Assembly: GCA_038230535.1 (NCBI GenBank)
Contig: JBBRNB010000017.1
Span: forward strand, 2,728 to 66,727
DNA: 64,000 nt
Direction of reading: 5' to 3'
Source of the DNA: Thermoanaerobaculia bacterium
GTDB taxonomy: Bacteria; Acidobacteriota; Thermoanaerobaculia; Gp7-AA8
Of the stretch, positions 10,833-30,600 are shown in pieces (within the stretch, counting starts at the first letter, position 1; every line of letters starts with the position of its first letter). A program made the position numbers and the translations under genes. A model generated the notes under the pieces. The model ran no database searches. It saw only the letters and a list, made by a program, of their open reading frames with translations, and was not told the origin of the DNA.

Positions 10833-12661
10833 AGTGGTGGCGGCTGGTTCTGATCGCCGTGCTGGTCGCTACCGGTTCCGCCATCGCGCAGTCGCCACTT
10901 CAGGACATCCAGTTCAAGTGGAGCCAGGGGCAGCAGACCGGCTTCCAGCGAAAGTCGGTTCCCGAGATCGACCGCTATGAAGCGCTCAGCATCACCGTCG
11001 ATAGGCAGAAGTTCCTGACCGATGCCGGCGCGCAACTGAGCGACGGGAACATGACGGCCAGCGACATGGAGACCGAGCTCCAGGTGCTGGCGACCTTCCT
11101 GAAAGAGGTCTCCAACTATCACGCTGCGCTCGTCAAGACCGTTTCGTCGTGGACGAAGCGGAGCATCGCGAACCCTGACGCACCGAAGAGCTTGACCGAG
11201 GCCATGGGCGCCGATCAGCAGCTTGCCGAGGCTCGTGCGGGAATGCGGAGCGGATTGGCGCAACTGAAGAAGCTGAAGACCATCGATCCGCAGACTTACG
11301 CGATCATCGAGCAGACGTTTGGCAGCTCCTCCGCCTACGTCAGCGCCGCAAACGCGATCGAAACTCGTCTCGATCAGCTCTCGGTCACGCTCCAGAAGAA
11401 CGCCGTCGCATCGGGAGCGCTCGGAATCACTGCCACCATCGTTCCGCCCGACGCAGCGGCGAGGGTGCTCCATCTCCCCAACTACGATCAGAACCCGGTG
11501 GCGTCAGCTCCGGCCGTTCCGAACTACGTGCCTGTCATCGACGGCCGCACGCGGCGCGAGATCACTGCGGCCGAGCAGTTTCGGGACGTGGGACAGAGCC
11601 TCAGCCAGGTTTCGACGCAATTCAAACAGAGCATGCAGGAACTGCAGGCCGGCCTCGAGTCGTTGCGCACGTCGCTGAAGACCGACGTGCTGGAGAGCGG
11701 CTTGAACGAGCTCATTCAGCAGGTGCAGACTTCCGCGCGGACCGATCTCGGACCGGTGCTCAAAGACGCTACCGCCGCTCGCGGCCTGGTGCGTAGCCTC
11801 AACTCCGCCACGCTCACGCTCGACGGTGCCACCGACGCGGACAAGCTGCTGAGCCTGGCCACGTCGCTCACGACAACGGCGCAGACGCTGGTCGATGTCA
11901 AGACCGACCTGCCGGCAGATCTCACGAACCTCGCCACCGACACGGAGACGGCTCTGAAGAACGCCGGAGACACCGCGCTCTCGAAGAGTGTGACGATGGT
12001 CAGGCAGGCGGCGTCTGACTTCCTCGCCAGGCAGACCTTTTTCACCGACCTGGCCAGCAGCCTCAGATCCCTCGGACAACTGCTCGAGGCGGATAGCCGG
12101 CTGGCGCTGAGCTCCAACCGGATTGCCGATTCCGCGCGCGCACTCGACGCCAACACCGACTACAGCACCACGCTCGACCTGCGCACCATCGCAGGCGATG
12201 TCCACGTGCGCGACAACATCGTCGTGCAGGCCGGGCTCTACCGGCGCGACTCGACGGGAAAGCTCACACAGTTGTCGACCGACTCGCAGGCGTTCGTGAT
12301 CCAGCGGTACTCGATCTTTCCCGACAGCGTCCGCGGCGGCCTCCTGTTTGTTGAACCGCGAACGAAGATCACGCGCGACATCAGTTACCAGCCGGTCCCC
12401 GCTCTCGGCTACTACTGGCGGAGCGGGATCCAGGGCCATCCGAGGTGGAACGCCGTGTCGCCGTCGTTCGGTATCACGATGGCCATGCTCGACTTCAAGG
12501 ATGGCGAAAGCCTGGAGCTCGGGATCGCCGGCGGCATCTCCATTCTCCGCGATCTCGCCTGGATCGGCTACGGACGCAACCTTCAGGCACGGGCGAACTA
12601 CTTCTACGTTGGCACGAACCCTCTGCTCTTGGTCAAGCTCTTTCAGAACGGATTTCGATGA
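10829..12661 (+). CDS. Hypothetical secreted protein (signal peptide, helical N-part, beta-rich C-part)
   Basis: A signal peptide (MKWWRLVLIAVLVATGSAIAQ) heads a 610-aa protein with no recognised domain. Confidence 0.5.
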   Translation: MKWWRLVLIAVLVATGSAIAQSPLQDIQFKWSQGQQTGFQRKSVPEIDRYEALSITVDRQKFLTDAGAQLSDGNMTASDMETELQVLATFLKEVSNYHAALVKTVSSWTKRSIANPDAPKSLTEAMGADQQLAEARAGMRSGLAQLKKLKTIDPQTYAIIEQTFGSSSAYVSAANAIETRLDQLSVTLQKNAVASGALGITATIVPPDAAARVLHLPNYDQNPVASAPAVPNYVPVIDGRTRREITAAEQFRDVGQSLSQVSTQFKQSMQELQAGLESLRTSLKTDVLESGLNELIQQVQTSARTDLGPVLKDATAARGLVRSLNSATLTLDGATDADKLLSLATSLTTTAQTLVDVKTDLPADLTNLATDTETALKNAGDTALSKSVTMVRQAASDFLARQTFFTDLASSLRSLGQLLEADSRLALSSNRIADSARALDANTDYSTTLDLRTIAGDVHVRDNIVVQAGLYRRDSTGKLTQLSTDSQAFVIQRYSIFPDSVRGGLLFVEPRTKITRDISYQPVPALGYYWRSGIQGHPRWNAVSPSFGITMAMLDFKDGESLELGIAGGISILRDLAWIGYGRNLQARANYFYVGTNPLLLVKLFQNGFR

Positions 12662-12788: not shown

Positions 12789-14507
12789 ATGATTACGTAC
12801 CTGAAGGTCCGCAACCTCGCCATCGTCGAGGAATTCGCCATCGAGCCTGGACCGGGGCTGAACGTTCTGACCGGCGAGACTGGAGCCGGGAAGTCGCTGC
12901 TCATCGACTCTCTGGAGTTCCTCCGCGGCGCGCGCGGCTCCACCGAGATGATTCGCGGGGGCGCCGGCAAGATGACCGCCGAGGGCGTTTTCCATCTGCC
13001 GGCGGGTGCCCGCGAAGCTCTCGATGAGATCGGCGTCGAGACGGATGGTGCGGACGACGTTGTCGAGTTGATCGTCAAGCGCGAGATCGCAGTCAACGGC
13101 CGGGGCAGAGTTCTCATCAACGGCTCGCCGCTCTCCGTCCGTGAGCTCGGCGTGGCAATGGATGCATTTCTCGAGATTCACGGACAACACGAGTCGCACG
13201 GCCGGGTGGCGGGTCAGGGATACCGCGAGTTGCTCGATGACTACGGCGATCACACCGCCCTCGTGGCCGCAACGCGGAATGCGCACTCCGTGTGGCACGA
13301 AGCGGCCGATCAGTTGCGCGAGCTGACCGACGCCCAGCGCGACCGTACGCTAAGGCTCGACCTCCTTCGCTACCAGATCGACGAGATCTCGGCCGCGGCC
13401 ATCGCTCCGGCGGAAGAGGAATCGCTGCGCAGCGAGCGGAGCATGCTCGCCAACGCGCGGCAGCTCGCCGAAGCGAGCAGCGGCGCCTTCGCACTCGTCG
13501 ACGACGACGAGACATCCGCGCTGGCTCAGCTCTCGCGTGCGCTCCATCTCATCCAGCCGCTGGCGCGCGAGATTGCGGATATCGCCACCATCAGCGCGGA
13601 GCTCGAGGACGCCATCTATCGCCTGCAAGAGACCTCGCGAGGACTCTCCAGGCTCTCGGATTCCGTGCGCCACGACCCAGTGCGCCTGGAGGAGATCGAG
13701 GACCGTCTGGTCACCATCGAGCGGCTCGAGAAGAAATACGGAGGCTCCGTCGAGGCCGTGCTGGCACACTTCGGCGCCATTCAGGACGAGTTCGAGCGGC
13801 TCAGCGACTACGAGACCAGTGTCGACAAGCTGCAGCGGGTCGAAGAGCAGCGTTTCGCCGCCTGGCGCGGCGCAGCCGAGTCGCTTTCGACGGCACGGAA
13901 GAAAGCGGCCAAGAAGTTCGAAACCGCAATTCAGTCGGAGCTCAACGATCTGGCCATGGAGCGCACGACGGTCAAAGTCGTCGTCGAAGCCGCCGAGCCG
14001 GCGCGCGAAAACGCTGCGGCTCACGGCCTCGACCGCATCGAGATCCTCATCGCACCGAACCGCGGCGAAGAGCCGAAAGCGATGCAGCGGATCGCCTCGG
14101 GCGGAGAGCTTTCCCGCATCCAGCTCGCCATCGCCGCAGCGCTGTTCAAGGCATCCCAGCACGCCGCCGCGGCGACTCTGGTCTTCGACGAGATCGACGC
14201 CGGCATCGGCGGCCGGGTAGCCGAGGTCGTCGGCAGGAAACTGCAGGAGCTCGCAGGCGGCAATCAGGTCATCTGCGTCACCCACCTCCCTCAGATCGCC
14301 AGTTTCGGCACCACGCACTTCTTCGTCTGGAAAGAAGACGCCCGCGGGCATACGCGCGCGCGCATACGCCGGCTCGAAACCGACGACGAACGCGTCAACG
14401 AGGTGGCCCGCATGCTCGGCGGCGAGTCGATTCCGGCCTCCGCCGTGCTTCACGCGCGCGAACTGCTCGACGGCGCCCGTGGGCCGGCAGCGAAGGCGAG
14501 GCGATGA
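12789..14507 (+). CDS. recN: DNA repair protein RecN
   Basis: The N-terminal Walker A GETGAGKS, a long coiled-coil middle and a C-terminal ABC signature/Walker B (LVFDEIDAGIGG) are all present. Confidence 0.9.
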   Translation: MITYLKVRNLAIVEEFAIEPGPGLNVLTGETGAGKSLLIDSLEFLRGARGSTEMIRGGAGKMTAEGVFHLPAGAREALDEIGVETDGADDVVELIVKREIAVNGRGRVLINGSPLSVRELGVAMDAFLEIHGQHESHGRVAGQGYRELLDDYGDHTALVAATRNAHSVWHEAADQLRELTDAQRDRTLRLDLLRYQIDEISAAAIAPAEEESLRSERSMLANARQLAEASSGAFALVDDDETSALAQLSRALHLIQPLAREIADIATISAELEDAIYRLQETSRGLSRLSDSVRHDPVRLEEIEDRLVTIERLEKKYGGSVEAVLAHFGAIQDEFERLSDYETSVDKLQRVEEQRFAAWRGAAESLSTARKKAAKKFETAIQSELNDLAMERTTVKVVVEAAEPARENAAAHGLDRIEILIAPNRGEEPKAMQRIASGGELSRIQLAIAAALFKASQHAAAATLVFDEIDAGIGGRVAEVVGRKLQELAGGNQVICVTHLPQIASFGTTHFFVWKEDARGHTRARIRRLETDDERVNEVARMLGGESIPASAVLHARELLDGARGPAAKARR

Positions 14508-15094
14508 AGAGCTGGCGCGTCGAAGGCGACCCGCCCGACGACGTGCTCGATGCGCTGGCGGCCGTTCTCCGAGGGGGAGGCGTGGTCCTGCTGCCCACCG
14601 ATACCATCTACGGACTGCACGCACTCGCCTCGGACGAGGGAGCGATTGCCCGCATCGCGGCGATGAAGGGACGTGGTGACGACAAGCCATTCGTGGTCAT
14701 CGGTTCATCCATCGAGCAGCTTCGTGCCCTCGGCGCCACGATCCCGGAGCTACTGCAGGAAATCTGGCCCGCACCGCTCACGGCAATTCTTGCCTCCGGC
14801 GGCTCCACCATCGCCGCGCGCATCCCCGATCTCGGATGGTTACGCGCCCTTCTCGACCGTACAGGACCGCTCGTCTCCACCAGCGCGAACCGGGCCGGCG
14901 AGCCTCCCGTCACGAGCCCCGGCGCACTCCCCAGCGACCTGAAGATGTGCATCGACGGGGCGCTCGATCAGGGCTCGCGCGAGGGCAAACCTTCGACGAT
15001 CGTGGACTTTACCGGGGATGAGCCGAAGGTCATCCGTGAGGGCGGCGAGGGCTTTTCACAGTTTCTGCGGAAAAGCCTGTGGAAAGCCCTGTGA
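14504..15094 (+). CDS. tsaC: L-threonylcarbamoyladenylate synthase, TsaC/YrdC family
   Basis: YrdC-domain motifs are present (LLPTDTIYGL, STSANRAGEP). The ATG overlaps the recN stop. Confidence 0.85.
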   Translation: MKSWRVEGDPPDDVLDALAAVLRGGGVVLLPTDTIYGLHALASDEGAIARIAAMKGRGDDKPFVVIGSSIEQLRALGATIPELLQEIWPAPLTAILASGGSTIAARIPDLGWLRALLDRTGPLVSTSANRAGEPPVTSPGALPSDLKMCIDGALDQGSREGKPSTIVDFTGDEPKVIREGGEGFSQFLRKSLWKAL

Positions 15095-15457
15095 AAAACG
15101 TCGAAAGACCGCGAGAAATGCGCACTTGGGAGCGCTTTGCACAACTCCGTGGGCGATATGAGCTAACTGTTGTCTGTATTGATGTTAACCGAAAACAGAC
15201 ACATCGCTAGCAGCGCCTTTTGTGCAGTAGCCCAAGTCGTTTTGCAGTTTCCACATCCAGGTTGACAAATCCAACCGGTTTTGCGCCGCCGTAACCGAAT
15301 GGTTGCAAGTCGTGGAGTGCGGTGGATTTGTCGCAGCAGTGGCGCAGCAGCCCCGAAAGATGTATGCTTATACGACATCGACGGCGGTTCGTCTCGGATG
15401 AGATGTATGCCACCTAGCCATTCCTGCCGAGCGGGTCCAAGAGCGAAAGAGGGTCAA

Positions 15458-17563
15458 TTGGTTACCAACCGATTCATCGTTAGCGCCATCGTCCTGAATA
15501 GGCTGGCATTCAGCGCCGCTCTTCTACTCTTTGCCGTCGCCGCGTTCGGCGAGATCACCGGCGAACATCCGGTCTCCACGCCGGTTAACGCGCCCGTCAC
15601 CGCCGCGCTCGAGCCGGCGGTCGCGTCCGACGGCGACGGGTTTCTCGCGGTGTGGTGCGACCAGCGCGACCACGGTGCGATCTACGCGACACGCATCGCT
15701 CGCGGCGGAACGATCCTCGATCCTCGCGGCATCCTCCTGGCAAACACGATCTCACACGTCGCCGTAGCGTGGACAGGCGACCGATACCTCGTCGCCTGGA
15801 ACGGCATTAACGTCATCATGGCTCAGGAAATTGCCGCTGACGGACGCTTCCTGACGCAGGACCGCGTGATCGTGCACGGCGCACAGATCACTAGTGCGCC
15901 GCACCCCATCGCGTCAAACGGCAGAGTCACGGTACTCATGACAAGCTCCGGCTACTCGGTGCTCGATCGTGAGGCGAACGTCATCGAGCAGGGGCGATTC
16001 GGCGAGTCTGCATACATTACTGGATCGGGCCAATTCGTGCTTCCAGCCGCTGGCAGCACGAGACTTCTCGACTCCTCCGGCCACTACGTGACCAGCGTCG
16101 CCAGAACGTGGCGGCAGGTCATTGCCTGTCACGGCAACGGCTGTATCACCGCGTTTCCTTTCGGCACGAAGGCCGGCGTCGCAACCTACGATCCTGCCGG
16201 CCTTGCCGCAGGACCGGCAATGAACCTTCCGATCGCAACGCGCACGCTCGACATCGTGCCCACCACCGATGGGTACCTTCTTGTGACGGACAGCGTCGCG
16301 CAGCGGCTCGACGACAATGGGCATCCAGTCGGTACACCGACTGCGCTGCCGGCCGCAGACAGCTATGTTCAGGCGGCCTCGAACGGCCGCGACGTGGCTG
16401 TGTTGCGGTGGTCGTTTGAGTCGTTCACCGCACTAGTCATCTCGCCTACGGCGGTGACGAAGCCGGAGCCGGTCACTACCAGCGCAAATGCGCAGCGAGA
16501 TGTCGCCATCGCGGCGAGCGGCACGAACTATCTGACCGTCTGGACGGAAAAGGACGGCGCCTATGCCGGACGTTTATCGCTCGACGGGCTGCCTCTCGAC
16601 GGCCGGGGCGTGTTTCTCGGTCAGAGCAGCGCCAAGCCGTCGGTGGTCTTCGATGGCACCTCCTATCTCGTGGTCCTCCAACAACGGTCGATCAGCGATC
16701 CGGAGGAGAGGGTGCTGCGGATCGAGCCCGCGACGGGAGCGGTGATGTCCATCAGCACGATCGATGGCACAGACCTGCGCATCGGCGCCAACGGCTCAAC
16801 CCGCGTGGCCGTCTGGGTCGACACGCTCGGCGCGGTGGAGACCGCATTCCTCACTCCGACCGGCGCTCTGGCCTCCATCCCCGTCTTCCTCGCCGTGCAG
16901 CCATCGGGGCAGCCGTTGACAACATTCGCGAACCTTTCGCTGGCGTGGAACGGCACGATCTGGTTGGCTACGTGGGAGGAGCAGGCTCACTACCAGCCGG
17001 TAGGCGCACCACCTCCTCTGTTCCCCGGCATTCCGCCGGCGATTGCCATTCGCGGCGTGCGTCTCTCGGCCGCACTGACGCCGCTCGACACACATCCGAT
17101 CACCGTCGCCCTGGCCCCGGCTGGGAACATCCGGTCATCGCGTGCCGCCTCCGACGGGCGGGATTTTCTGGTGGCCTGGACGACTGACCGCGTCCGCGTT
17201 CGCCGGGTTCTCTCTTCAGGCGCCTTGGACGAGGAAATGCCGTTCTTCACCGGGTCGGTGCAGGATCTCGTCTGGGACGGCGTTGCATACGACCTCGCCT
17301 TTGCGACCGCAAGGTGGCGGTTCTCGCCGGGCGACATGGACGTTGCGCAACTCCGATCGTCCGGCCAGCCCTTCCAGACGCTCGTGATCAGCCCGAATAG
17401 CGGCGGCGATCGCACCGCGTCGCTCCTCACAACTTCGAACGGACACATTCTTGCCGCATATACGCGCGCAGCCGATGAGCTGCTTTACGCCGGTGTTGCG
17501 CGAGCGTTTGTGGCCGCCCCGCATCCCATCCGTGAACGGCCCGTTTCAAAGGAAAACCCATGA
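15458..17563 (+). CDS. Secreted repeat protein, paralog 1 of a four-gene tandem family (putative beta-propeller-like)
   Basis: A signal-peptide-like N-terminus is followed by FAVAAFGEITGEHPVS. It has repeated [AS]xxG(x)xFLV(V/A)W blades and the C-terminal motif YTR...YAGV.RAFV. The start is uncertain (TTG 15458 or ATG 15398). Confidence 0.6.
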   Translation: MVTNRFIVSAIVLNRLAFSAALLLFAVAAFGEITGEHPVSTPVNAPVTAALEPAVASDGDGFLAVWCDQRDHGAIYATRIARGGTILDPRGILLANTISHVAVAWTGDRYLVAWNGINVIMAQEIAADGRFLTQDRVIVHGAQITSAPHPIASNGRVTVLMTSSGYSVLDREANVIEQGRFGESAYITGSGQFVLPAAGSTRLLDSSGHYVTSVARTWRQVIACHGNGCITAFPFGTKAGVATYDPAGLAAGPAMNLPIATRTLDIVPTTDGYLLVTDSVAQRLDDNGHPVGTPTALPAADSYVQAASNGRDVAVLRWSFESFTALVISPTAVTKPEPVTTSANAQRDVAIAASGTNYLTVWTEKDGAYAGRLSLDGLPLDGRGVFLGQSSAKPSVVFDGTSYLVVLQQRSISDPEERVLRIEPATGAVMSISTIDGTDLRIGANGSTRVAVWVDTLGAVETAFLTPTGALASIPVFLAVQPSGQPLTTFANLSLAWNGTIWLATWEEQAHYQPVGAPPPLFPGIPPAIAIRGVRLSAALTPLDTHPITVALAPAGNIRSSRAASDGRDFLVAWTTDRVRVRRVLSSGALDEEMPFFTGSVQDLVWDGVAYDLAFATARWRFSPGDMDVAQLRSSGQPFQTLVISPNSGGDRTASLLTTSNGHILAAYTRAADELLYAGVARAFVAAPHPIRERPVSKENP

Positions 17564-19641
17564 AACGCCACATCATCACCGCCGTCTCTATTCTCTTTGC
17601 CGTCGCCGCGTTCGGCGAGATCACCGGCGAACATCCGGTCTCCACGCCGGTTTACGCGCCGGCCACGGCCGTGAGTGGACAGATCGCATCCGACGGCGAT
17701 GGATTCTTCGAAGTCTGGGAGGATCAGCGTGATCACGGCGCCGTCTATGCCTCAGCGGTCACTCGGAACGGGACGGTGCTGAATCCGTCCGGCATACTCC
17801 TGTCAAAGAAGCCGTCCGTGTTCGCGGTCGTCTGGACCGGCGAATCGTATCTGGCCGTTTGGAACGATTCGAACAATGTGGTCGCTGAGCAATTCGCCGC
17901 CGACGGGCGGGTGGTCGCACCAACCCGCGCCATCGTAGCCAACGAGCAGGTCACGGAAAAACATGCGCTCTCGACGAACGGCAAGATCACGGTCTTGACG
18001 TGCTGGAACCGGTACTTCGTTCTCGACCGCAACGCCAACGTCATCGACTCCGCCAGCTTCGGCGCTCTTTCTGTCTATGTCACGGGAACGGGTGAATTCG
18101 TGATTACCGGAGGCGGAGTCATGCGAATCGACTCCTCAGGCCGCTTTGCCACGCGGAGCACTCATGCCTGGCCAAACCCCATCGCCTGCCGCGCGAGCGG
18201 GTGCATCACGGTGTTTCAGGACGTGAACACGCACGGGCACATCGCGGTGGGGACGTACGATCCGGCGACGCTGGCCATCGGAACGGTGCTCGAGACTCCA
18301 CTGCAGCTTCCGGCGGCACAGGTGTGGCTCGATCTTCTAGTCACCGAAGACGGTTACGTCCTCGCCACTGGCAACGGCATGGTGCAACGGCTTGGTCCGG
18401 ACGGGCATCCCGTAGGAGCGCCAGTCATGCTGACGGGAGGTAGCGGTCAGGTCACGGCGGCAACGAACGGACGGGATGTGGCCGTCCTTCGCACCGTTGG
18501 CTCGCGCCTCATCAACGACATCGTTACCGCCGGCTCGAGTACGCAATACACCGTCGGCATCAGCGCGAACGCGCAGCACGAAGTCGCGATCGCCAGAAGC
18601 GCCTCGAACTACCTCGCGGTCTGGACTGAACGGGACGGTGTGTACGCCGGACGACTGTCGCTCGACGGCCTTCCCCTCGACGGCCGCGGAACGCTGCTGA
18701 GCACCGACACGCGCAAGCCTTCCGTAGTCTACGACGGCTCGTCGTATCTGATCGTGGCCGGACACGCCCAACTGTCCTCCGCGACGACATCGCAGACGGT
18801 TTTTCAGATCGACCCCGCGACGGGAGCGCTGCTGTCCCAACTCACGATCCCGGGAAGCATGCAAATCGCCACCAACGGCACCACAAGGGTCGGCGTATGG
18901 GTAGATTCGGCCGGCGGGCTCGAAGCAGCATTTCTGGCTCCCAATGGCGCCATCTCATCCTTCCCAGCGTTGGTTGCCCTTCCCCTTCGCTTTGGTGGAG
19001 CGAGCATCGGAAACCCCTCGCTCGCATGGAACGGGGCCATCTGGCTGGTGACGTGGATGGATCAGGTTCTCCAAGGCATCTTGCTTGAGGGGCACCAGCC
19101 AGACCCTGTAGACATCCGCTGCGAACGGCTCTCGGCTGCATTGATCCCGCTCGATGCAGAACCGGTCATGGTCACCGCGCCGTCTGATTGGCTCATCCAG
19201 TCTTCGCGTATCTCGTCCGATGGCCACGATTTTCTGGTGGCCTGGAATGCTCAGCCTTTCCCGGGGCTGCGCGTTCGACGCGTCCTTTCCACGGGAGTCG
19301 CGGAGGGAGCGGCAATATCGCTCTTCAACGGCCTCCTGCAGGACCTGGTGTGGGACGGAGCCGAATACGACCTCGCCTTCAATACCGAGGTTACCTACCT
19401 TGCACCGGTCGACGAGGCGATTGTCCGGCTCCTCCCATCCGGCCGACCGTTGGAAACGCTCGTGATCAGCGCGGCGGCCGGCGACGAACGAAGCGCATCG
19501 CTGGTTCCGATCGGGAACGGCCGCATTCTCGCGGCATACACGCGCGTCGCCTTCGAGCCACTCTACGCCGGCGTGGAGCGTGCGTTCGTAGGCACACCGC
19601 GTCCCGCCCGAGGAAGGGCTACGTTCAAAGGAACGCAATGA
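17560..19641 (+). CDS. Secreted repeat protein, paralog 2
   Basis: It starts ATGAAACGC, overlapping the paralog-1 stop. It has the same N-terminal (60 nt identical to paralog 1) and C-terminal motifs. Confidence 0.7.
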   Translation: MKRHIITAVSILFAVAAFGEITGEHPVSTPVYAPATAVSGQIASDGDGFFEVWEDQRDHGAVYASAVTRNGTVLNPSGILLSKKPSVFAVVWTGESYLAVWNDSNNVVAEQFAADGRVVAPTRAIVANEQVTEKHALSTNGKITVLTCWNRYFVLDRNANVIDSASFGALSVYVTGTGEFVITGGGVMRIDSSGRFATRSTHAWPNPIACRASGCITVFQDVNTHGHIAVGTYDPATLAIGTVLETPLQLPAAQVWLDLLVTEDGYVLATGNGMVQRLGPDGHPVGAPVMLTGGSGQVTAATNGRDVAVLRTVGSRLINDIVTAGSSTQYTVGISANAQHEVAIARSASNYLAVWTERDGVYAGRLSLDGLPLDGRGTLLSTDTRKPSVVYDGSSYLIVAGHAQLSSATTSQTVFQIDPATGALLSQLTIPGSMQIATNGTTRVGVWVDSAGGLEAAFLAPNGAISSFPALVALPLRFGGASIGNPSLAWNGAIWLVTWMDQVLQGILLEGHQPDPVDIRCERLSAALIPLDAEPVMVTAPSDWLIQSSRISSDGHDFLVAWNAQPFPGLRVRRVLSTGVAEGAAISLFNGLLQDLVWDGAEYDLAFNTEVTYLAPVDEAIVRLLPSGRPLETLVISAAAGDERSASLVPIGNGRILAAYTRVAFEPLYAGVERAFVGTPRPARGRATFKGTQ

Positions 19642-19700
19642 AACGCTCGATCCCCACCGCCGTCTCGCTGCTGTTTCTCGCCCGAAAGGGCCGGAGCGGA
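19639..19700 (+). pseudogene. 5' fragment of another paralog (signal-peptide remnant MKRSIPTAVSLLFLA)
   Basis: An ATGAAACGCTCGATCC start, near-identical to the paralog-3 start, sits at the paralog-2 stop. It is followed by a signal-peptide-like stretch and then a truncated, low-complexity tail. Confidence 0.35.
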
Positions 19701-19774
19701 TGGCCCAATGAACGCTCGCTGCGAGGCCCACGCCGTTTGTGCCGCAGGAGTACGATAAAGAAGGAGATTCTCCT

Positions 19775-22036
19775 ATGAAACGCTCGATCCTGGCAGCCCT
19801 CACCCTGGTTCTTCTCGCAGCCACTTCGTTTGCCGCGGTTTCGGGCGAACGGCCCATCTCCGAGCCTGCCTACGGCCCACCTCCAGGATACCGGTACGGC
19901 GCCGCTTCGGCGTCGGACGGACACGACTTCATGGTGGTCTGGATCGATGCGTGGCGCAACCCGGCAAGCGCCAGGCAGATCTACGCGGCGCGCATGAATG
20001 CCGCGGGCGAAGCACTCGACCCCCTCGGCATCCGCCTTCCGGCCGACAAGGCGCAGGACCGGGTCGACATCGTCTTCCTCGGCAATTCATACCTCGTCTA
20101 TTGGGATGAGCGTTCCGCGATCACGCCGGGCTCGAACTCTCTCATGGGGGCCCGCATCAGCCGCGACGGTGTCCTGCTCGATTCCAAGCCCCGCATGCTC
20201 GCCGATCGCGCAACCGTCAGCGTGCACGGCTCCGCCAGCAACGGCAATCGCACCGTGATCGCCTACGTCACCTCGGATCGCAGCCTGATGATCGTCCTCG
20301 ACCGCGATGGCAACCTGGTGAGCGGACCGAAACCGTTCACGTCGCAAGGGGCTCCGGCCGCGTCCGAGTTCTCCATGGTGGCGTCAAACGGACGCGAGTT
20401 TCTGGTGATCTCGATCCGCGGCGCCGTGCTTTACCCGGCACGGCTCGACGCAAATGGCGACCCGGTCGCACCTTCCACTGTGTCGGTGACGACGGCCACG
20501 TCGCTTTTCGACCTGGCCTCAGACGGTGACAGTTACGTTGCAATCGTCCAGCAGCCAACCGGCCCCATCGCGCAACACATCAGCGCGGCCGGTGCAGTAC
20601 TGGAGACGTGGCCGGTTCCGATCCAGGTGATCCTCTCCGGATTCGCGTTCACGAGCGGCTCCTATCTGCTGATGGATGGCGATCCTGTGAAAGGGACGAA
20701 CGGTGTCCGCCGCCTGGACCGCACCGGACAGCCGGTTGGTTCGTACGTCACCGTTTCGAATGTCCAGATCATCGGCGGCGGGGCTGCATTGGCATCCAAC
20801 GGTTCCGACGCAGCGTTCTTCTGGGCCGATTCGGTCTCGAACTTACAAGTGTTCTCCGGCGCCCTGCTCAACGGGCAATCGCTGGCTGCCGCAAAGACCT
20901 CGGCAATCGCGCGCAGCGCCAATTCCCAGTACGCGCCAGCCGCGGCAACGAGCGGACGCAACACAGCCGTCGTCTGGAACGAAACCGGCGGTCTCTATGC
21001 CGCCCGTATCTCTCTCGACGGGCAGACGCTCGACGGCCGCGGGATACGCGTTGGCGACAGGAGCCTGACGGACCCGCGCATCGTCTACGACGGAACCAAC
21101 TATCTCATCGCCTGGACCGAGCAGGTATCCACGCCGATGATGATGACCATGGACACCGTGAAGCTGGCGCGCCTGTCGCCCGACAGCGGTGCGCTACTCC
21201 CAGGAATCATCGTTTTTGCGGGCAAGTGCGCGAACGGTGTGACGCTCTCCGCTGGTCCGGCCTCGACCCTGGTGGCGTTGTCCGATTGCGAGCACGTCAT
21301 TGCCACGACGTTCGGTCATGACGGTAGCCTCAGCACCGCCGTGACCGTTACGCCTCCGCAGACAACCAACACCGGCAGCGTTTCCGCGGCATGGAACGGA
21401 CACGAGTGGCTGGTCGTGTGGGAGGACGATCTGCCTCCCGGTTTCGGCTGGGATCCGCCGATCATTTATGACGTGCGGATCTACGCGTCGCGTCTATCGC
21501 CGGCGCTCACCGTACTCGACCCCAATCCGATCGTGGTCTCGAACACGCTTCGTGACAGCCGGCCGCAGGTGGCATCGAACGGCGAAGCTTTCCTCGTGGT
21601 CTGGACCGGATACGTAACCAGCGACCCGGCTCCGTACCGTGTCATGGCACAGCGGGTCTCGTCCGATGGCTCTCTCCTTGCGCAGGCCAACGGCGTCCGT
21701 GTGGCGTACGGAACGACGAAGAGTCTCGCCTGGGACGGCGCGCAATACGACGTGGCGCTGTCGTCGTATTTCTCCACCGGGCCGGCTGCAATTGCAACGT
21801 TCACCTACAACCTGTATGTCACGCACGTCGCCGCCGCCGGTCCGATTGAGAGCCTCCTCCCGCTGTCCGTGGTCACGAACCCGATGGACCCCGATGCAGC
21901 GCTGGTCGTCACCGGAGCCGGCAGCACATCGGCCATCTACACCCGCATCGGCACCGAGCCGCAGTACGGCGACGTGGCGCGAGCATTCGTGAGTGCTCTG
22001 CACGCCTTGCGCGGACGCGCGGCCGGGCCGCGATAG
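19775..22036 (+). CDS. Secreted repeat protein, paralog 3
   Basis: An AAGGAG Shine-Dalgarno precedes the start (MKRSILAALTLVLLAATSFAAVSGERPIS). It has the blade repeats and the C-terminal YTRIGTEPQYGDVARAFV. Confidence 0.7.
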   Translation: MKRSILAALTLVLLAATSFAAVSGERPISEPAYGPPPGYRYGAASASDGHDFMVVWIDAWRNPASARQIYAARMNAAGEALDPLGIRLPADKAQDRVDIVFLGNSYLVYWDERSAITPGSNSLMGARISRDGVLLDSKPRMLADRATVSVHGSASNGNRTVIAYVTSDRSLMIVLDRDGNLVSGPKPFTSQGAPAASEFSMVASNGREFLVISIRGAVLYPARLDANGDPVAPSTVSVTTATSLFDLASDGDSYVAIVQQPTGPIAQHISAAGAVLETWPVPIQVILSGFAFTSGSYLLMDGDPVKGTNGVRRLDRTGQPVGSYVTVSNVQIIGGGAALASNGSDAAFFWADSVSNLQVFSGALLNGQSLAAAKTSAIARSANSQYAPAAATSGRNTAVVWNETGGLYAARISLDGQTLDGRGIRVGDRSLTDPRIVYDGTNYLIAWTEQVSTPMMMTMDTVKLARLSPDSGALLPGIIVFAGKCANGVTLSAGPASTLVALSDCEHVIATTFGHDGSLSTAVTVTPPQTTNTGSVSAAWNGHEWLVVWEDDLPPGFGWDPPIIYDVRIYASRLSPALTVLDPNPIVVSNTLRDSRPQVASNGEAFLVVWTGYVTSDPAPYRVMAQRVSSDGSLLAQANGVRVAYGTTKSLAWDGAQYDVALSSYFSTGPAAIATFTYNLYVTHVAAAGPIESLLPLSVVTNPMDPDAALVVTGAGSTSAIYTRIGTEPQYGDVARAFVSALHALRGRAAGPR

Positions 22037-22062
22037 CGGCGATCAGGAAAAAGGAAGGTCCA

Positions 22063-24330
22063 ATGAAACGCTCAGTTGCCATCGCCATCTCATTGCTGTC
22101 TCTCGCTGTCGCCTCGTTCGCCGAAGTAGCGGGCGAACGGCCCGTTTCGGATCCAGCGTACGGCATCGCCCCAGGTCAGCGAAACTATGCGGCCGCTGCA
22201 TCAGATGGACAGAATTTTCTGGTGGCGTGGATCGACGTCCAGCGCAACCGATCCAACATCATCAGCCAGGTCTATGCCTCGCGAATGAGCGCCGGCGGTG
22301 ATGCGCTCGACCCGCTCGATATCCGCCTTCCCGCATCCCAACAGTCCCGCTTCAGAATCTCCCGGGTGGGAGTGGTTTTTCTCGGCGGGTCGTATCTGGT
22401 CTACTGGCTCGACGTTTCCCCAATCTCACCGGGATGGGCGGCGGTGATGGGTGCACGCATCAGCCGTGATGGCGTTTTGCTCGACTCGGCTCCACGAGTG
22501 CTGGTCAATCAGGCCGACGCTCTCAGCGCGCACGGTGCCGCAAGTAACGGCAACCGCACCATCGTCGCCGCCGGCAATCTGATGACTGTGCTCGACCGCG
22601 ACGGAAACGTCGTGAGCGGGCCGAAGTCCTACACCGGAGGGACCATCTTCGATGCCCTTGTGACCTCGAATGGTCACGACTTCATGGTGATCTGGCAGCA
22701 AAGTAGCGTCATCCGTTCGGCCAGATTCGACGAAAACGGCAACCAGCTCTCCACCTCGTCCATCACCACCGTCTCCGGGCTGATCGCGCTCGTTGATCTC
22801 GCATCGGACGGCGACGGCTATGTCGCAGTCATCGACCACGGAAATGGGCTCGTTGCCCATCACATCGCCGCGACCGGCGAGGCGCTGGAGACGTGGCCAC
22901 TTCCGACACAGTTCTCCTCGGTGCAGCACACATTCCCCGGGTTCGTGTTCACGGGGGGCTCGTATCTGCTCATGGATTGCGATTTGCACCAAAACACGAT
23001 CGGAGCACGGCGTCTCGACCACACCGGCCAACCCTCCGGGGGTTACGTCCCTGCGGTCTCTTATCCCTGTGACGGTACGACAGGAACGCTCGCTTCCAAC
23101 GGCTCCGGTACTGGGATGTTCTGGGCATCAGGAGACTATTGGGCTGAATCTCTCAACGGTGCTGTGATGAGCGGACAGGCACTCACCACCTCGAAGACTT
23201 CGACGTTCGGTCACAGCGCGAGAGAGCAGACTAATCCTGCCGCGGCAACGAGCGGCCGCAACAGCGCCGTCGTCTGGAATGAGTACGACGGCTTGTACGC
23301 CGGCCGGATCGGCATCGACGGAGCGATGCTCGATGGACGCGGGATCCGTATCAGCGGCCGGAGGAGTACCACGCCGCCGCAGATCGTCTACGACGGCGCG
23401 AACTACCTCATCGGCTGGACCGAGGTGTCATCGGCTACTCCGGTCAAACAGCAGGTGAAGCTCGCGCGGGTCGCGCCAGACAGCGGCGTCCTCCTCTACC
23501 CCTCAGGCATTCTCGTCGCTACGGGGCAGTGCGGCATCGGGGGAGTGACGCTTTCGCCCGGCGTGACGTCGACGTTGGTGGCGTGGTCGGATTGCACGCG
23601 CGTTCTCGCCACCACCGCCAGTCAGGGATTCTCTTCCGGCAACCTTGTTACGGTCACGACGACGGAATCGACGCACAGCGCAGGCAGGGTCTCCGCGGCA
23701 TGGAACGGCAGCGAATGGCTCTTGGCCTGGCAGGAATTGATACCGCACAACAACGGTCCTCTCGACGAGTTCCCATCGGTGGACACGTTGATCAACGCCT
23801 CCCGATTGTCGTCATCGCTCACGGTGCTCGACCCAGCTCCTATCGCCGTGACCAACACGCTCAATGTCAGCCTCCCGTTCGTGGCCTCCGACGGTCATAG
23901 CTTCCTGGTAGCCTGGTCGCGCTCCGAAAGCACTCCCCCTCACAGCAGCACGATGATCCAGCGAATCTCCTCCGACGGTTCTCTCCTGGCCCAGGCCAAC
24001 GGAGTCCGCCTGGCTCCCGGCAATACGAAGAGCGTCGTCTGGGATGGCGCGCGGTACGCGGTGGCCATCTCGTCATTCCTGGACAACGGGCAGGGTTCCC
24101 CGGCCTACACCCTCTTCGTCACACATGTCGCCGCAGCCGGTTCGATCGAGAGCCTTCAGCCGCTCGCGTTCATCACGACCACGATTGACCCGGACGCGTC
24201 GCTGATCGTCACCGGAACGGGCAGCACGGCCGCCGTCTACACCCGAGTCGGCTCGGAGGCGCAGTATGGCGATGTCGAGCGCGCGTTCGTGAGCCTGCCG
24301 CACACATTGCGGGGGCGGGCAGCGCGCTAA
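22063..24330 (+). CDS. Secreted repeat protein, paralog 4
   Basis: The N-terminus is MKRSVAIAISLLSLAVASFAEVAGERPVS. It has the blade repeats and the C-terminal YTRVGSEAQYGDVERAFV. Confidence 0.7.
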   Translation: MKRSVAIAISLLSLAVASFAEVAGERPVSDPAYGIAPGQRNYAAAASDGQNFLVAWIDVQRNRSNIISQVYASRMSAGGDALDPLDIRLPASQQSRFRISRVGVVFLGGSYLVYWLDVSPISPGWAAVMGARISRDGVLLDSAPRVLVNQADALSAHGAASNGNRTIVAAGNLMTVLDRDGNVVSGPKSYTGGTIFDALVTSNGHDFMVIWQQSSVIRSARFDENGNQLSTSSITTVSGLIALVDLASDGDGYVAVIDHGNGLVAHHIAATGEALETWPLPTQFSSVQHTFPGFVFTGGSYLLMDCDLHQNTIGARRLDHTGQPSGGYVPAVSYPCDGTTGTLASNGSGTGMFWASGDYWAESLNGAVMSGQALTTSKTSTFGHSAREQTNPAAATSGRNSAVVWNEYDGLYAGRIGIDGAMLDGRGIRISGRRSTTPPQIVYDGANYLIGWTEVSSATPVKQQVKLARVAPDSGVLLYPSGILVATGQCGIGGVTLSPGVTSTLVAWSDCTRVLATTASQGFSSGNLVTVTTTESTHSAGRVSAAWNGSEWLLAWQELIPHNNGPLDEFPSVDTLINASRLSSSLTVLDPAPIAVTNTLNVSLPFVASDGHSFLVAWSRSESTPPHSSTMIQRISSDGSLLAQANGVRLAPGNTKSVVWDGARYAVAISSFLDNGQGSPAYTLFVTHVAAAGSIESLQPLAFITTTIDPDASLIVTGTGSTAAVYTRVGSEAQYGDVERAFVSLPHTLRGRAAR

Positions 24331-24380: not shown

Positions 24381-25118
24381 ATGACGACGACAATCGAGCC
24401 TCAAACGCAACCCGCGCACACCGAAGCCCCGGCGCTCCAGCGCCAGTTCGTCAACTTCATGTTCTTCAAGGCCGACCGCGCCCTCCGGCGTGAGAGCGCC
24501 GAGGTGAAGGAACAGGCCAAACGCGAATTCGTGGAGATCGTCCGCCGCCACACCGGCCCGATGATGGTCCTGCCGTACTCCACCGTCGGCCTGAAGCCGA
24601 ACACGGACTTCATGTTCTGGCGCATCGGCTACGACATCGACCCCTTCCAGCAGATGGCGGCCGACATCAACAAGTCGATCCTCGGCCGGTACCTGGACAT
24701 CCCGGTGTCGTACTTCTCGATGACCAAGCATTCGCAGTACGTCGACGAGCACGTTCACGAAGGGCAGGAAGGGCGGCGACTGAAGATCGTCCCAGGCAAG
24801 AAACCGTTCCTCTTTGTCTATCCGTTCGTGAAGACTCGCGACTGGTACCTGCTCCCGCAGAGCGACCGCCAGCGGATCATGAGCGAGCACATCGCCATCG
24901 GCCACAAGTACCCGCGCGTGAAGATCAACACGACCTATTCGTTCGGCCTCGACGACCAGGATTTCGTCGTCGCTTTCGAAGCCGATTCCGCCGCCGAGTT
25001 CCTCGACCTTGTTCAGGAGCTCCGCGAGACGGAGTCGTCGAAGTTCACCCTGCGCGATACGCCGATGTACACGTGCCGGAGATCGACGATCGAGGAGATT
25101 CTGGACTCGCTGGCGTAG
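24381..25118 (+). CDS. Chlorite dismutase family protein (HemQ / coproheme decarboxylase-like)
   Basis: The Cld/HemQ fold signature is recognised and length is typical at 245 aa. Confidence 0.7.
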   Translation: MTTTIEPQTQPAHTEAPALQRQFVNFMFFKADRALRRESAEVKEQAKREFVEIVRRHTGPMMVLPYSTVGLKPNTDFMFWRIGYDIDPFQQMAADINKSILGRYLDIPVSYFSMTKHSQYVDEHVHEGQEGRRLKIVPGKKPFLFVYPFVKTRDWYLLPQSDRQRIMSEHIAIGHKYPRVKINTTYSFGLDDQDFVVAFEADSAAEFLDLVQELRETESSKFTLRDTPMYTCRRSTIEEILDSLA

Positions 25119-27635: not shown

Positions 27636-30600
27636 TCACGCCTGCGCTGAGCGGCTGCCGAGGTACCGTTGAAGGACTTCGGTGAGACTGGTGAGGCTCA
27701 CTGGTTTGGTCATGTAGTCGTTGGCGCCGGCGGCGAGGCACTTCTCACCGTCGCCTCCCATTGCGAAAGCGGTGAGCGCGACGATCGGGGTCTTTTTCAT
27801 CGCCGTGTTCTCGCGGATGCGGCGGATGGCTTCGAGGCCGTCGAGACGCGGCATCTGAATGTCCATGAAGATCAGCGCGGGGCGGATCTCCAGAGCACGT
27901 TCGACCGCTTCGAAGCCGTCCCCGGCCACGACAATCGGGTAGCCGCGGCTGCCGATGAAGTCGCGCATCACTTCGATGTTGGATGTATTGTCCTCGGCGA
28001 GCAGGATGACGGCGCTCTTCCACGGCTCGATCGCCTCCTCGAGACTCCACAGCGATGGGACGACGCGCCGGACCGCGGCCTCCAGGCGGTCGTAAGTGAT
28101 CGGCTTCACGACATAGCCGGCTGCGCCGAGGGCGCGTCCGCGGGGCTCGTCATCGACGACCGAGACGACAATGACGGGGATCTGCCGTGTGTCCGCCGCC
28201 GCTTTCAGTTCCCCGAGGATGAACCAGCCGGACTCCTGATCGAGTACTACGTCGAGGACGATCAAGGCGGGCATGAGTTCTCTGGCCAGATCGACGGCGG
28301 CTCGACCATTGTCGTGAATCACGATCGCGAACCCGATGGTCCGGAGGTAGCGAATGACCTGCTCGGCCGTGCTGGGATCGTCTTCGACTACCAACGCCAG
28401 CAGTGGCACATTCTCCGGCAGCGGCCGTACCGGCAATTTCACCGCGGCTGGAATTGGAGCCGCTGTTTCGGGACGACGCCAGGGAAGTGTTACCGTGAAA
28501 CGGCTACCCTGCCCGAGGACGCTCTCGACCTCCACGCTCCCGTCGTGGAGCGCCGTCATCCGCCTTACGAGTGACAGGCCGAGTCCTGTACCGGAGAACT
28601 GCCGCGCGTAGCTGCTTTCGAGTTGCACGAACGGTTCGAACAGTTGGTCCATCGACCCGGCCGCGATACCGATTCCGGTATCCCACACAGTGAATTGGAC
28701 GAGGTTCTGCTCCGCCGAGCAGGTCACATCAAGTCCGACCGCGCCTCCTTCAGGCGTGAACTTCACAGCGTTCGAAAGGAGGTTGACCAGGATCTGCTTG
28801 AGTCTGCGGTCATCGGCGTTCAGCGTCATGACGCCCGGGTCGATGCTGATGGTTAGTCTCAGCCCCTTTCTGGCCGCGTGCTCGCGCACCATGCGCACCG
28901 AGGCATCGCAGACCGCTTTGACGCCGACCGGCGCGATGGCGATCTCCAGCTTGCCCGCCTCGATTTTCGAGAGGTCGAGGATGTCATTGATCAGATCGAG
29001 CAGGTGTCTGCCGCTCTCCTCGATCGTTTTCAGCGACTTCCTCTGACGTTCATTCAGGCCGCCGTGGATTCCTTCCTCCAGGACTTCCGACATCCCCAGG
29101 ATGGCGTTGAGCGGAGTGCGCAGCTCGTGACTCATATTTGCCAGGAACTCGTCTTTCAGGCCGCCGGCCCGCAACAGCGCTTCGTTGGCGGATGCCAGCT
29201 CCTCGGTACGCAATTCCAACTGACGGTTGACGCTGGCCAGTTGCCGCGTCCGTTCCTCCACCCGGTCTTCGAGCTCGACATTCAACTCACGCAGCTCGTT
29301 CGCCACTTTTTGACGTTCGGCGATCTCGCGTCTGGCATCGCCGTAGAGCCTGGCGTTGTCGATGGCCACGGAGGCAAGTTGGGCGAATCGCTCGACGATC
29401 TCGATCTGCTCCAGAGTGAATGGCTGATCGGGCTCCTTGTGAGCCATGCCGATCACGCCGGTGACTTCGTCACCCGAGAGCAGCGGGACGGCGAACGCGG
29501 CATGGATCTCGATCTCGACGTTGAGCCTTCGGCCGGGCCATCTGGCGACGTCGGGAATCGAGAGTGTCTGCCCGCTTTCCCACACCCGGCCGGAGAGTCC
29601 CTCACCTCTCCTGGTCTCGGCCGTTCTGTCAGCGAAAATGCCCGAGCCTGTAGCCTGTACGAGCACGTCGCGATCGTGGTCTACGATCATCACGAATACA
29701 TCCTCGGATTCTGTGATGGCGGCACAGCGATTGGCGATTCCGCGCAAGAGGTCCGAGAGATCGAGCCGGTTGATGAGGCCTAACGCAGTCTCATGCAAGG
29801 CCGAGAGATAGTCGTTCTGGCGCAGGACCGCGAGCTCGGCGCGCTTTCGCTCGCCGATGTCGGTGCCGACGAAGAAGACGAATTCCGCTTCATCCGCGGC
29901 CGAGAGAACCGGGCGGCCATGCCATTCGATGAGCAGAATTCTCCCGTCGCGCGAACGCAGTTGCTGCTCGGAGGTGGCCGGCATCATCGATTCCGCCACC
30001 GCCCGCAGCACCGCGCGGGCGCCCGGCTGATCCTCGGGCACGACAAACTCGGAGACGAAATCGACGTCATGAACCGCCTCGCGCGAGCACCCAAGCGCAG
30101 CCAGCAGCGCCTCGTTCATCATCAGCACGCGCCCGTCGAGCGCCACGGCGATGAAAAACGCGGGCGAAGACTCGATCAGACTCTGGCTGAAGTGCGTCTC
30201 CCGGATCAGGCGCGCCTCAGCCCGCCTGCGGTCGGTGATGTCCTCGCCGATGGTGGCTGTTCCAATCGGTTCCCCCGAGGCGGAGCGGAGCAGCGTGGCG
30301 CTCCACTGAATGAGCCGCCTCTCACCCGACCTGGTCATGATCTCGGATGCGCGATGCCACGAGTCCGGCGGTTCAGCCAGCTTCGTCGTGAAGCGGTCTC
30401 GCATTGCGCCGATCTCTTCTGGCGGGAAGAAGCGTTCGAATACGTCGCTGCCGGTCACCTCGTGCCGTTGCCAGCCGGTCAGACGCAGAAAATAGTCGTT
30501 GCAGTAGATGAGGCGTGCTTCGCGGTCGACCATGATCGAGACCAGTTCCAGATTGTCGAGCATCTCCCGGAACCGCGCCTCGCTTTCACGCAGTGCCTCC

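What the first reader, a model, noticed from the sequence alone, without database searches (positions are those of the whole stretch)
15458..24330. Tandem array of four paralogous large secreted repeat proteins plus a 5' gene fragment
Four consecutive same-strand genes encode 690-760-aa proteins. The proteins share a signal peptide and a near-identical N-terminal segment, GE(I/V)TGE(H/R)P(V/I)S.P. Copies 1 and 2 share about 60 identical nucleotides. About 12 internal blades carry the motif [AS]xxG(x)xFLV(V/A)W, for example ASDGDGFLAVW, ASNGRDVAVLRW, AWNGTIWLATWEE and ASDGHDFMVVWID. All four share a C-terminal signature, YTR(V/I)..E..YG.V.RAFV, followed by basic residues. A truncated ATGAAACGCTCGATCC... 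signal-peptide remnant at 19639 shows recombination or decay within the array. Copies 1 and 2 are joined by an ATGA overlap. The family is not one I can place in a named domain family. The conserved C-terminus may be a sorting or attachment signal. Its position directly after the pilus/secretin operon suggests surface or secreted function, possibly under diversifying selection.
Basis: partly seen in the sequence, partly recalled or inferred. Interest (0 to 1): 0.75.

Follow-up and report, generated by a model that had tools for sequence, protein, structure and literature searches.

The report
Variable array of secreted double-propeller proteins
Four neighbouring genes encode exported proteins predicted to fold as two seven-bladed beta-propellers; they belong to an unnamed but very widespread repeat family, and sit in a fast-changing gene slot between well-conserved housekeeping genes in Thermoanaerobaculia (Acidobacteriota). 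Their function is still unknown.

The parts
15112..15345 (+). Conserved non-coding element of about 230 nt upstream of g1. It contains TTTGCACAA, its inverted copy TTGTGCAG, TTGCAGTTTCCACAT, TTGACAA and GTTGCAAGT. It is a candidate promoter or operator region for the array.
   Evidence: Found at 12 places in 10 related loci, always next to propeller genes, and better conserved than the genes themselves. No RNA covariation. No Rfam hit. Single copy in the window.
15458..17563 (+). g1, subfamily A double-propeller protein (701 aa, TTG start after a GAAAGAGGG Shine-Dalgarno-like sequence, long signal peptide).
15527..15586 (+). 60-nt tract identical to 17593-17652 in g2. It covers the end of the signal peptide and the mature N-terminus, and is a short gene-conversion patch.
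17560..19641 (+). g2, subfamily A double-propeller protein (693 aa). Its ATG overlaps the g1 stop (ATGA).
19638..19682 (+). Remnant of a lost gene copy: 15 codons of a family signal peptide (MKRSIPTAVSLLFLA), with its ATG overlapping the g2 stop. The open frame then runs into unrelated sequence and stops at about 19778.
19699..19720 (+). Possible second remnant of a gene start (GATGGCCCAATGAACGCTCG, compared with GAAGGTCCAATGAAACGCTCA in front of g4).
   Evidence: Weak; judged by eye only.
19775..22036 (+). g3, subfamily B double-propeller protein (753 aa, AAGGAG Shine-Dalgarno sequence).
   Evidence: P0011.
22063..24330 (+). g4, subfamily B double-propeller protein (755 aa).
12789..15094 (+). 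Conserved left flank of the slot: RecN-like SMC ATPase (12789-14507) and YciO/Sua5-family protein (14504-15094). Context, not part of the family.
24381..25118 (+). Conserved right flank of the slot: chlorite-dismutase-family protein. Context.

Best explanation
The four genes encode Sec-exported, soluble proteins. Each is built from 14 degenerate copies of a ~53-aa four-stranded blade and folds into two seven-bladed beta-propellers.

The conserved N-terminal segment (GERPVS.P.YG) and the conserved C-terminal segment (YTR…YGDVERAFV) are the two ends of this structural module. They probably close the last blade together, in a 'velcro' arrangement.

The proteins belong to a very large repeat superfamily that Pfam does not model. 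Elsewhere, modules of this superfamily form the outward-facing part of T9SS-sorted or MYXO-CTERM-anchored surface proteins. In Thermoanaerobaculia the module stands alone and lives in one chromosomal slot, RecN-YciO-[slot]-Cld. There it is duplicated, lost, reordered, patched by gene conversion, and evolves several times faster than its neighbours.

Most likely the proteins act outside the cytoplasm as ligand-binding (lectin- or adhesin-like) propellers with a changing set of specificities.

Shown here: the genes, the paralogy, the fold prediction, the superfamily, the slot and the rate contrast.

Inferred: export, the velcro closure, and binding rather than catalysis.
For: Fold and blades:
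- AlphaFold: g4 pLDDT 87.5, pTM 0.85; g2 pLDDT 88.6, pTM 0.84. Both are all-beta with 14 groups of 3-4 strands.
- Foldseek aligns the whole chain to tandem double propellers with TM 0.4-0.5.
- A repeat HMM built from WOR-3 proteins finds 6-9 blades in each window protein.

Superfamily:
- 19,879 cluster representatives match at E<=1e-3.
- Relatives carry Por_Secre_tail, FlgD_ig, Kelch, an InlB B-repeat, or tandem-95 repeats plus MYXO-CTERM.

Module ends:
- The N- and C-motifs occur about 700 aa apart inside the larger protein P0144. The C-motif is internal in 11 multidomain relatives.

Export:
- Each protein has an MKR + hydrophobic + A/S-x-A/G signal sequence, which the models predict as a helix.
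- There is no lipobox Cys.
- A Cys pair is invariant in 27 of 27 subfamily A sequences.

Slot and rates:
- The same RecN-YciO…Cld frame appears in 12 related loci, with 1 to 5 copies in the orders AABB, AB, BA, B, AABA and AAAA+B.
- In L001-L013 the flanks RecN and Cld are 83-92% identical and the propellers 27-58%. In the most distant relative, L085, they are 71/77% against 28-32%.
- Window versus L004: dN is 0.046-0.175 for the flanks and 0.33-0.54 for the propellers.
- A 60-nt conversion tract and a gene remnant are present.

Binding rather than catalysis:
- The invariant residues are repeated blade positions (G, W, Y, D, R), not a unique catalytic set.
Against: - No ligand, partner or localisation has been observed; function rests on analogy.
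- Fold matches include enzymes (CylK, virginiamycin B lyase, PL25 and PL42 lyases, GH145) as well as lectins, at similar Z and 7-13% identity. The fold does not discriminate.
- Gene-wide dN/dS is below 1, and dS is near saturation.
- Orthology among copies is ambiguous, so part of the 'fast evolution' could be old paralogy.
- The conserved basic tail has no explanation in this model.
Confidence: 0.55

Rival explanations
1. They are secreted enzymes that use a 7-bladed propeller as the catalytic domain. Candidates are polysaccharide lyases or hydrolases (like PL24/25/42 or GH145) or small-molecule lyases or alkylating enzymes (like Vgb or CylK). On this view the paralogues have different substrate ranges.
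Against: Identity to all these enzymes is 7-13%, and WD40 scaffolds and lectins score the same. No Pfam or NCBIfam enzyme family matches. The conserved His residues of subfamily B are not conserved in subfamily A. The family-wide invariant residues are repeated structural blade positions. Related modules sit in adhesin-like architectures.
Confidence: 0.2
2. The conserved C-terminus is a new sorting or attachment signal. The basic tail (…PH..RGRAAR-COOH) would be recognised for export across the outer membrane, or would tether the protein to an anionic cell-surface polymer.
For: After the last strand comes a tail of median 15 aa that is 29% basic and 3% acidic. It ends in R in 64 of 112 proteins, and 81 of 112 carry a [RK]x[RK] motif in the last 10 residues. 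R750 and R752 are invariant in alignment A2. The tail has pLDDT below 50, so it is probably flexible. It is among the most conserved segments of the protein.
Against: There is no transmembrane stretch: the longest hydrophobic run is 6 or fewer. It is therefore unlike PEP-CTERM, MYXO-CTERM, LPXTG or GlyGly-CTERM signals. There is no T9SS C-terminal domain. The larger YTR…RAFV signature is a blade and is internal in multidomain relatives. No cognate sorting enzyme lies in the conserved neighbourhood.
Confidence: 0.15
3. They are periplasmic housekeeping scaffolds, analogous to TolB, BamB or YncE, and the array merely reflects neutral duplication.
Against: Copy number ranges from 1 to 5 with variable order, and identity is 27-58% against 83-92% for the flanks. 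This is not how conserved envelope machinery behaves. The family was found only in Thermoanaerobaculia/Acidobacteriota. Homologous modules elsewhere are on surface-sorted proteins.
Confidence: 0.08
4. The array is decaying, consisting of non-functional duplicates.
For: A gene remnant lies at 19638. A frameshifted copy is present in relative L012.
Against: All four ORFs are intact over about 2.1-2.3 kb in 62-64% GC DNA. dN/dS is about 0.3-0.45. The structural residues are conserved, and the fold predictions are confident.
Confidence: 0.02

Closest known systems
Unnamed 'VAFDGTNYLVVW…DIYGARVS..G.VLDP.GI' beta-propeller repeat proteins of WOR-3, TA06, Eisenbacteria, Stahlbacteria, Myxococcota, Actinomycetes and others. 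NCBI names examples only by their tail, e.g. 'T9SS type A sorting domain-containing protein'.
   Same: The blade repeat is the same: the family profile gives E down to 1e-169, and the repeat HMM hits 6-9 blades in g1-g4. The runs are about 14 blades long. The closing blade is similar (…VYT….R.F). All are extracytoplasmic.
   Different: In those proteins the blades are near-identical, and they are followed by sorting or adhesion domains (Por_Secre_tail, FlgD_ig, Kelch, tandem-95 repeats plus MYXO-CTERM). The window proteins are stand-alone with strongly differentiated blades, their own N-motif and a basic tail. Full-length collinear matches were found only in Thermoanaerobaculia/Acidobacteriota loci.
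TIGR04275 beta_prop_Msarc (NCBIfam 40-residue beta-propeller repeat)
   Same: It is the only named repeat model that touches the superfamily. The canonical-repeat relatives score 21-66 bits.
   Different: All hits are below the 85-bit cut-off and cover about 15-33 residues. g1-g4 give no hit even at E<=1.
Seven-bladed bacterial propellers of known structure: YncE (3vgz), PLL, CV39L and BP39L lectins (5c9o, 6gxs, 6gxr), virginiamycin B lyase (2z2n), the CylK propeller (7ron)
   Different: Identity is 7-14%, with no shared sequence motif and no family-level match. Those are single propellers, whereas here two are fused.
Tandem double-propeller proteins (Aip1/WDR1 1nr0, Utp and EML-type WD40 pairs, tricorn)
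   Different: Those are eukaryotic or cytosolic WD40 lineages, with no sequence relation and unrelated functions.
DUF3659 (PF12396)
   Same: Distant relatives exceed its whole-protein cut-off by summing many short matches to the 'G.VLD..G' hairpin.
   Different: No single stretch passes, and g1-g4 do not match. This is motif-level resemblance, not membership.

Membership tests
Beta-propeller fold (7-bladed, tandem) | Four-stranded antiparallel blades arranged radially, closing in rings of seven. | tested here: met
Named propeller repeat families (WD40, Kelch, NHL, YVTN, FG-GAP/VCBS, BNR/Asp-box, LVIVD, SBBP, PQQ, TolB) | A match to the family's Pfam model above its gathering score. | tested here: not met
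   No Pfam-A match for g1-g4 even at E<=1.
TIGR04275 beta_prop_Msarc repeat | Score of at least 85 bits against the NCBIfam model. | tested here: not met
   No hit for g1-g4 at E<=1. Canonical-repeat relatives reach only 21-66 bits.
Unnamed FDGTNYLVVW-repeat superfamily | Several tandem copies of the ~53-aa repeat, detectable with a repeat profile. | tested here: met
   A repeat HMM built from P0107 and P0111 gives whole-protein E 2e-23 to 4e-38 with 6-9 stretches per protein. The reciprocal family-profile search hits thousands of such proteins.
Thermoanaerobaculia stand-alone double-propeller family (subfamilies A and B) | Full-length collinear match of about 690-780 aa, comprising a signal peptide, the GERPVS N-motif, 14 blades, the YTR…RAFV closing blade and a basic tail. 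| tested here: met
   g1 and g2 belong to subfamily A, g3 and g4 to subfamily B.
T9SS cargo | C-terminal Por_Secre_tail or type B CTD. | tested here: not met
   No PF18962 or TIGR04183 match in g1-g4. Both are present in distant relatives.
PEP-CTERM / MYXO-CTERM / LPXTG-type sorting | A C-terminal motif followed by a transmembrane helix and a basic cluster. | tested here: not met
   No NCBIfam match. The longest hydrophobic run in the last 30 aa is 6 or fewer across 112 family members.
Bacterial lipoprotein | A lipobox with Cys at +1 of the mature protein. | tested here: not met
   The signal peptides end in …ASFA|E and …AAFG|E, with no Cys.
Sec-exported protein | An N-terminal signal with a basic n-region, a hydrophobic h-region and small residues at -3 and -1. 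| tested here: inconclusive
   The pattern is present by eye in all four proteins and across the family, and is predicted as a helix at residues 2-18. No dedicated signal-peptide predictor was available.
Propeller polysaccharide lyases/hydrolases (PL24/25/42, GH145) | Family sequence signature and catalytic His/Tyr/Arg in the central cleft. | not testable with these tools
   Only a fold match, at 8-11% identity.

The most novel reading that the evidence does not exclude
The RecN-YciO…Cld slot is a dedicated variation cassette. On this reading a set of exported double propellers is diversified by duplication, loss and short-tract gene conversion. Expression is driven from a conserved ~230-nt control element. 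The proteins are displayed through a previously undescribed basic C-terminal tail signal. They would serve recognition of changing partners such as phages, competitors, kin or polymers.
Probability: 0.12. Interest if true: 0.7.

Novelty: new member of a known kind. Interest (0 to 1): 0.4.

Why it matters
The blade repeat found here matches about 19,900 protein clusters (50% identity representatives), yet it has no Pfam model and no studied member. It therefore marks a large blind spot in annotating the cell-surface proteins of mostly uncultivated bacteria. The Thermoanaerobaculia locus offers a compact, comparable natural experiment: the flanks stay the same while the content varies. That makes it a good place to ask what these propellers bind and why they change so fast. 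No function was established here, and the fold itself is ordinary.

Tried and rejected
Searches that found nothing for g1-g4:
- Pfam, NCBIfam, PHROGs and PADLOC scans.
- A profile search of PDB sequences.
- Literature searches: the motif string and topic searches found no paper on the family.

Leads tested and dropped:
- DUF3659 hits in relatives are sums of short hairpin matches, not membership.
- I tested whether the sequence after the signal-peptide remnant is a leftover 3' gene end. Local alignments to eight 3' ends scored no better than shuffled controls.
- The conserved upstream element shows no RNA structure: RNAalifold gives -9.6 kcal/mol with no covariation, and Rfam has no hit. The simple sigma-70 scan found no promoter.
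- By eye, I saw no sigma-54 or fixed-spacer ECF promoter in the upstream element either.
- An obligate A+B heterodimer is unlikely, because L008 has only a B copy and L085 has a single divergent copy.
- A functional link to the secretin/pilus genes is not supported, because that neighbourhood is not conserved in L001 and L005.

Limits:
- Pairwise dN/dS among the paralogues is uninformative because dS is about 1.1-1.2.
- The afdb50 fold library was unavailable.
- Model coordinates could not be read.
- The window's own contig could not be retrieved by exact look-up.
Full report
**Observation**

The region holds four consecutive + strand ORFs:
- g1: 15458 (TTG, preceded by GAAAGAGGG) to 17563
- g2: 17560 to 19641
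- g3: 19775 to 22036
- g4: 22063 to 24330

Their products are 701, 693, 753 and 755 aa. The alignment gives 52% identity for g1/g2, about 55-57% for g3/g4, and 31-35% between the pairs.

All four begin with a basic, hydrophobic, small-x-small signal sequence followed by GE(I/V).GE(H/R)P(V/I)S.P. All four end with YTR…E..Y..V.RAFV and a basic tail.

The g1 stop and g2 start overlap as ATGA. The g2 stop overlaps, again as ATGA, an ATG at 19638. That ATG opens 15 codons of a family signal peptide (MKRSIPTAVSLLFLA), after which similarity is lost. The rest of the 133-nt spacer does not resemble any 3' gene end beyond shuffled controls.

g1 and g2 share an exactly identical 60-nt tract (15527-15586 = 17593-17652). 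Overall nucleotide identity is 61% and third-position identity is 47%. That is a short gene-conversion patch. No further copy exists in the window.

**What the proteins are**

No Pfam, NCBIfam, PHROGs or PADLOC model matches. A family profile finds no PDB sequence.

AlphaFold2 was run with family alignments:
- g4: pLDDT 87.5, pTM 0.85
- g2: pLDDT 88.6, pTM 0.84

Both models are all-beta. DSSP strands fall into 14 groups of three or four, each carrying the pattern [A/S].(D/N)G..(F/Y)L(V/A).W … Y..R(I/L)…G..LD…I.

I conclude that each protein is two fused seven-bladed propellers.

**The repeat and its superfamily**

A profile search of 1.84 billion cluster representatives returned 19,879 proteins at E<=1e-3 and 3,779 at E<=1e-30. 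Many are 900-4,900 aa long, with 8-23 matched stretches.

Their blades are near-identical copies of about 53 aa: PSVAFDGTNYLVVWEDNRN…DIYGARVSQSGSVLDPEGIAIS. An HMM of that unit recognises 6-9 blades in each window protein. g1-g4 are therefore strongly differentiated members of this repeat superfamily.

The GTDB genome scan places the superfamily in WOR-3, TA06, Eisenbacteria, Stahlbacteria, Zixibacteria, Ignavibacteria, Spirochaetales, Actinomycetes, Chloroflexota and Myxococcota, including the cultured Hyalangium, Archangium and Polyangium.

These relatives carry Por_Secre_tail, FlgD_ig, Kelch or InlB B-repeat domains. In Myxococcota they carry tandem-95 Ig-like repeats ending in MYXO-CTERM. 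These are cell-surface architectures.

The only named models that touch them do not amount to membership:
- DUF3659 scores only by summing short hairpin matches.
- TIGR04275 scores 21-66 bits against a cut-off of 85.
- Neither matches g1-g4.

No paper on the repeat was found. Pereira and Lupas (PMC9218822) describe in general how propellers are repeatedly amplified from single blades. I read that paper only through its abstract and a term search.

**The stand-alone family and the terminal signatures**

Full-length, collinear matches (one stretch over profile positions 1-743) occur only in Thermoanaerobaculia/Acidobacteriota. All other phyla match repeat by repeat. There are two subfamilies:
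- A: g1/g2 type, about 690-710 aa, with an invariant CxxxxC in 27 of 27 sequences
- B: g3/g4 type, about 735-780 aa

A profile of it hits 130 proteins. In 119 it is terminal. In 11 multidomain relatives it is internal and followed by other domains. In P0144 the N-motif (304-317) and C-motif (999-1025) bracket a module of about 700 aa inside a 1,281-aa protein.

The two signatures therefore mark the ends of the structural module. Blade 14 has only three predicted strands, and the N-motif supplies short extra strands. A velcro closure is therefore likely; this is inference.

After the last strand comes a tail of median 15 aa:
- It is 29% basic and 3% acidic.
- It has no hydrophobic run longer than 6.
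- It ends in Arg in 64 of 112 proteins.
- It typically reads PH..RGRAAR.
- It is conserved but has pLDDT below 50.

It fits no known sorting signal and remains unexplained.

**The locus**

The array is not directly downstream of the pilus/secretin genes. The T2SSE ATPase is at 529-2154 and the secretin at 4904-7450. An M16 peptidase, an unassigned 610-aa ORF, RecN (12789-14507) and YciO/Sua5 (14504-15094) intervene. A chlorite-dismutase-family gene follows at 24381.

This RecN-YciO-[propellers]-Cld frame recurs in 12 related loci, but the content varies:
- A A B B: window and L004
- A B: L005
- B A: L006 and L009
- B alone: L008
- A A B A: L010
- four A plus a partial B: L013
- B plus a divergent copy: L001
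- one divergent copy: L085

Upstream neighbourhoods differ; L001 and L005 have no secretin in the ~7-10 kb fetched upstream.

Identity to the window is as follows:

| Gene | L001-L013 | L085 |
|---|---|---|
| RecN | 83-90% | 71% |
| Cld | 87-92% | 77% |
| YciO | 67-78% | 58% |
| best propeller match per window copy | 27-58% | 28-32% |

Divergence between the window and L004:

| Gene | dN | dS |
|---|---|---|
| RecN | 0.059 | 0.75 |
| Cld | 0.046 | 0.48 |
| YciO | 0.175 | 0.76 |
| propeller pairs | 0.33-0.54 | 0.96-1.2 |

So the propellers change six to eight times faster at non-synonymous sites than RecN and Cld (about two to three times faster than YciO), with omega about 0.33-0.45 against 0.08-0.23. 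This shows rapid evolution and birth-and-death turnover. It does not show positive selection: omega is below 1, dS is near saturation, and orthology is ambiguous.

**Mechanism**

The best-supported reading is that these are Sec-exported, soluble double propellers acting as binding modules outside the cytoplasm. Four points support it:
- Homologous modules are the distal parts of surface-sorted proteins.
- Subfamily A conserves a likely disulfide.
- The family-wide invariant residues are repeated structural positions rather than a unique catalytic set.
- Copy-number flux with rapid divergence is typical of proteins that face changing partners.

An enzymatic role cannot be excluded, because the fold matches do not discriminate. 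Candidates are propeller lyase or hydrolase types. An obligate A+B pair is unlikely, because some genomes have only one type.

**Side finding**

The 363-nt spacer before g1 contains a ~230-nt element (15112-15345) that is conserved far better than the genes. It recurs at 12 places in 10 related loci, always beside propeller genes. These include second copies inside arrays and one copy in front of Cld in L005.

It has invariant blocks (TTTGCACAA, its inverted copy, TTGCAGTTTCCACAT, TTGACAA, GTTGCAAGT). It shows no RNA covariation and no Rfam hit, and it is unique in the window. It is probably a DNA-level control region. This was not tested further.

**Verdict**

This is a real and correctly described gene array. 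It is a new family-level member of the beta-propeller fold class. It belongs to a huge repeat superfamily that Pfam does not model, and it sits in a hypervariable slot. Its function is unknown. Interest is moderate.

Noticed in passing
window 15112-15345: A non-coding element of about 230 nt upstream of g1 is conserved far better than the propeller genes. It occurs at 12 places in 10 related loci. It contains TTTGCACAA and its inverted copy about 80 nt apart, plus TTGCAGTTTCCACAT, TTGACAA and GTTGCAAGT. There is no RNA covariation and no Rfam match. It is a candidate operator or promoter region.
   Followed up: partly
L001:12473-12706, L005:12503-12736, L009:12440-12673, L013:5358-5591: Second copies of the same upstream element lie inside arrays, between two propeller genes. 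In L005 a copy lies between the last propeller gene and Cld, as if a gene had been lost there.
   Followed up: partly
window 19699-19720: There is a possible second remnant of a gene start in the g2-g3 spacer. GATGGCCCAATGAACGCTCG resembles the ribosome-site/ATG junction of g4 with a one-base deletion.
   Followed up: partly
L012:9929-12251: A family copy in a related MAG is split over two frames (profile positions 1-557, then 559-743). It lies at a second locus outside the RecN-Cld slot. This is either a frameshifted pseudogene or an assembly error.
   Followed up: no
g2 residues 210 and 215 (window about 18187-18204); g1 'IACHGNGCIT': A CxxxxC pair is invariant in all 27 subfamily A sequences and absent from subfamily B. 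It is a likely hairpin disulfide.
   Followed up: partly
L025:9182-14731 (Hyalangium versicolor), L082:8534-14635 (Archangium minus): These are giant myxobacterial proteins. Each has an N-terminal run of the same propeller repeat, then six or more tandem-95 Ig-like repeats, then a MYXO-CTERM signal. They are cultured organisms in which the module could be studied.
   Followed up: partly
window 10829-12661 (+), overlapping 10697-11473 (-) and 11504-12439 (-): The stretch between the M16 peptidase and RecN has a 610-aa + strand ORF and two - strand ORFs, none with a Pfam match. In relatives this position holds a - strand YkuD/PG_binding gene or an unannotated gene. The true gene here is unresolved.
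   Followed up: no
window 4904-7450: The secretin ORF carries N-terminal TPR and FecR_C-like matches, plus a weak C-terminal cohesin-like match. This is an unusual set of extensions for a secretin.
   Followed up: no
window 27636-36157 (-): Three large PAS/GAF histidine kinases lie in a row (1164, 619 and 829 aa), one of them a hybrid with two receiver domains.
   Followed up: no
L004:19414-20817 and L085:10314-11693: A - strand MgtE gene is inserted between the array and Cld in two relatives. The array and Cld are therefore not an obligate operon.
   Followed up: no
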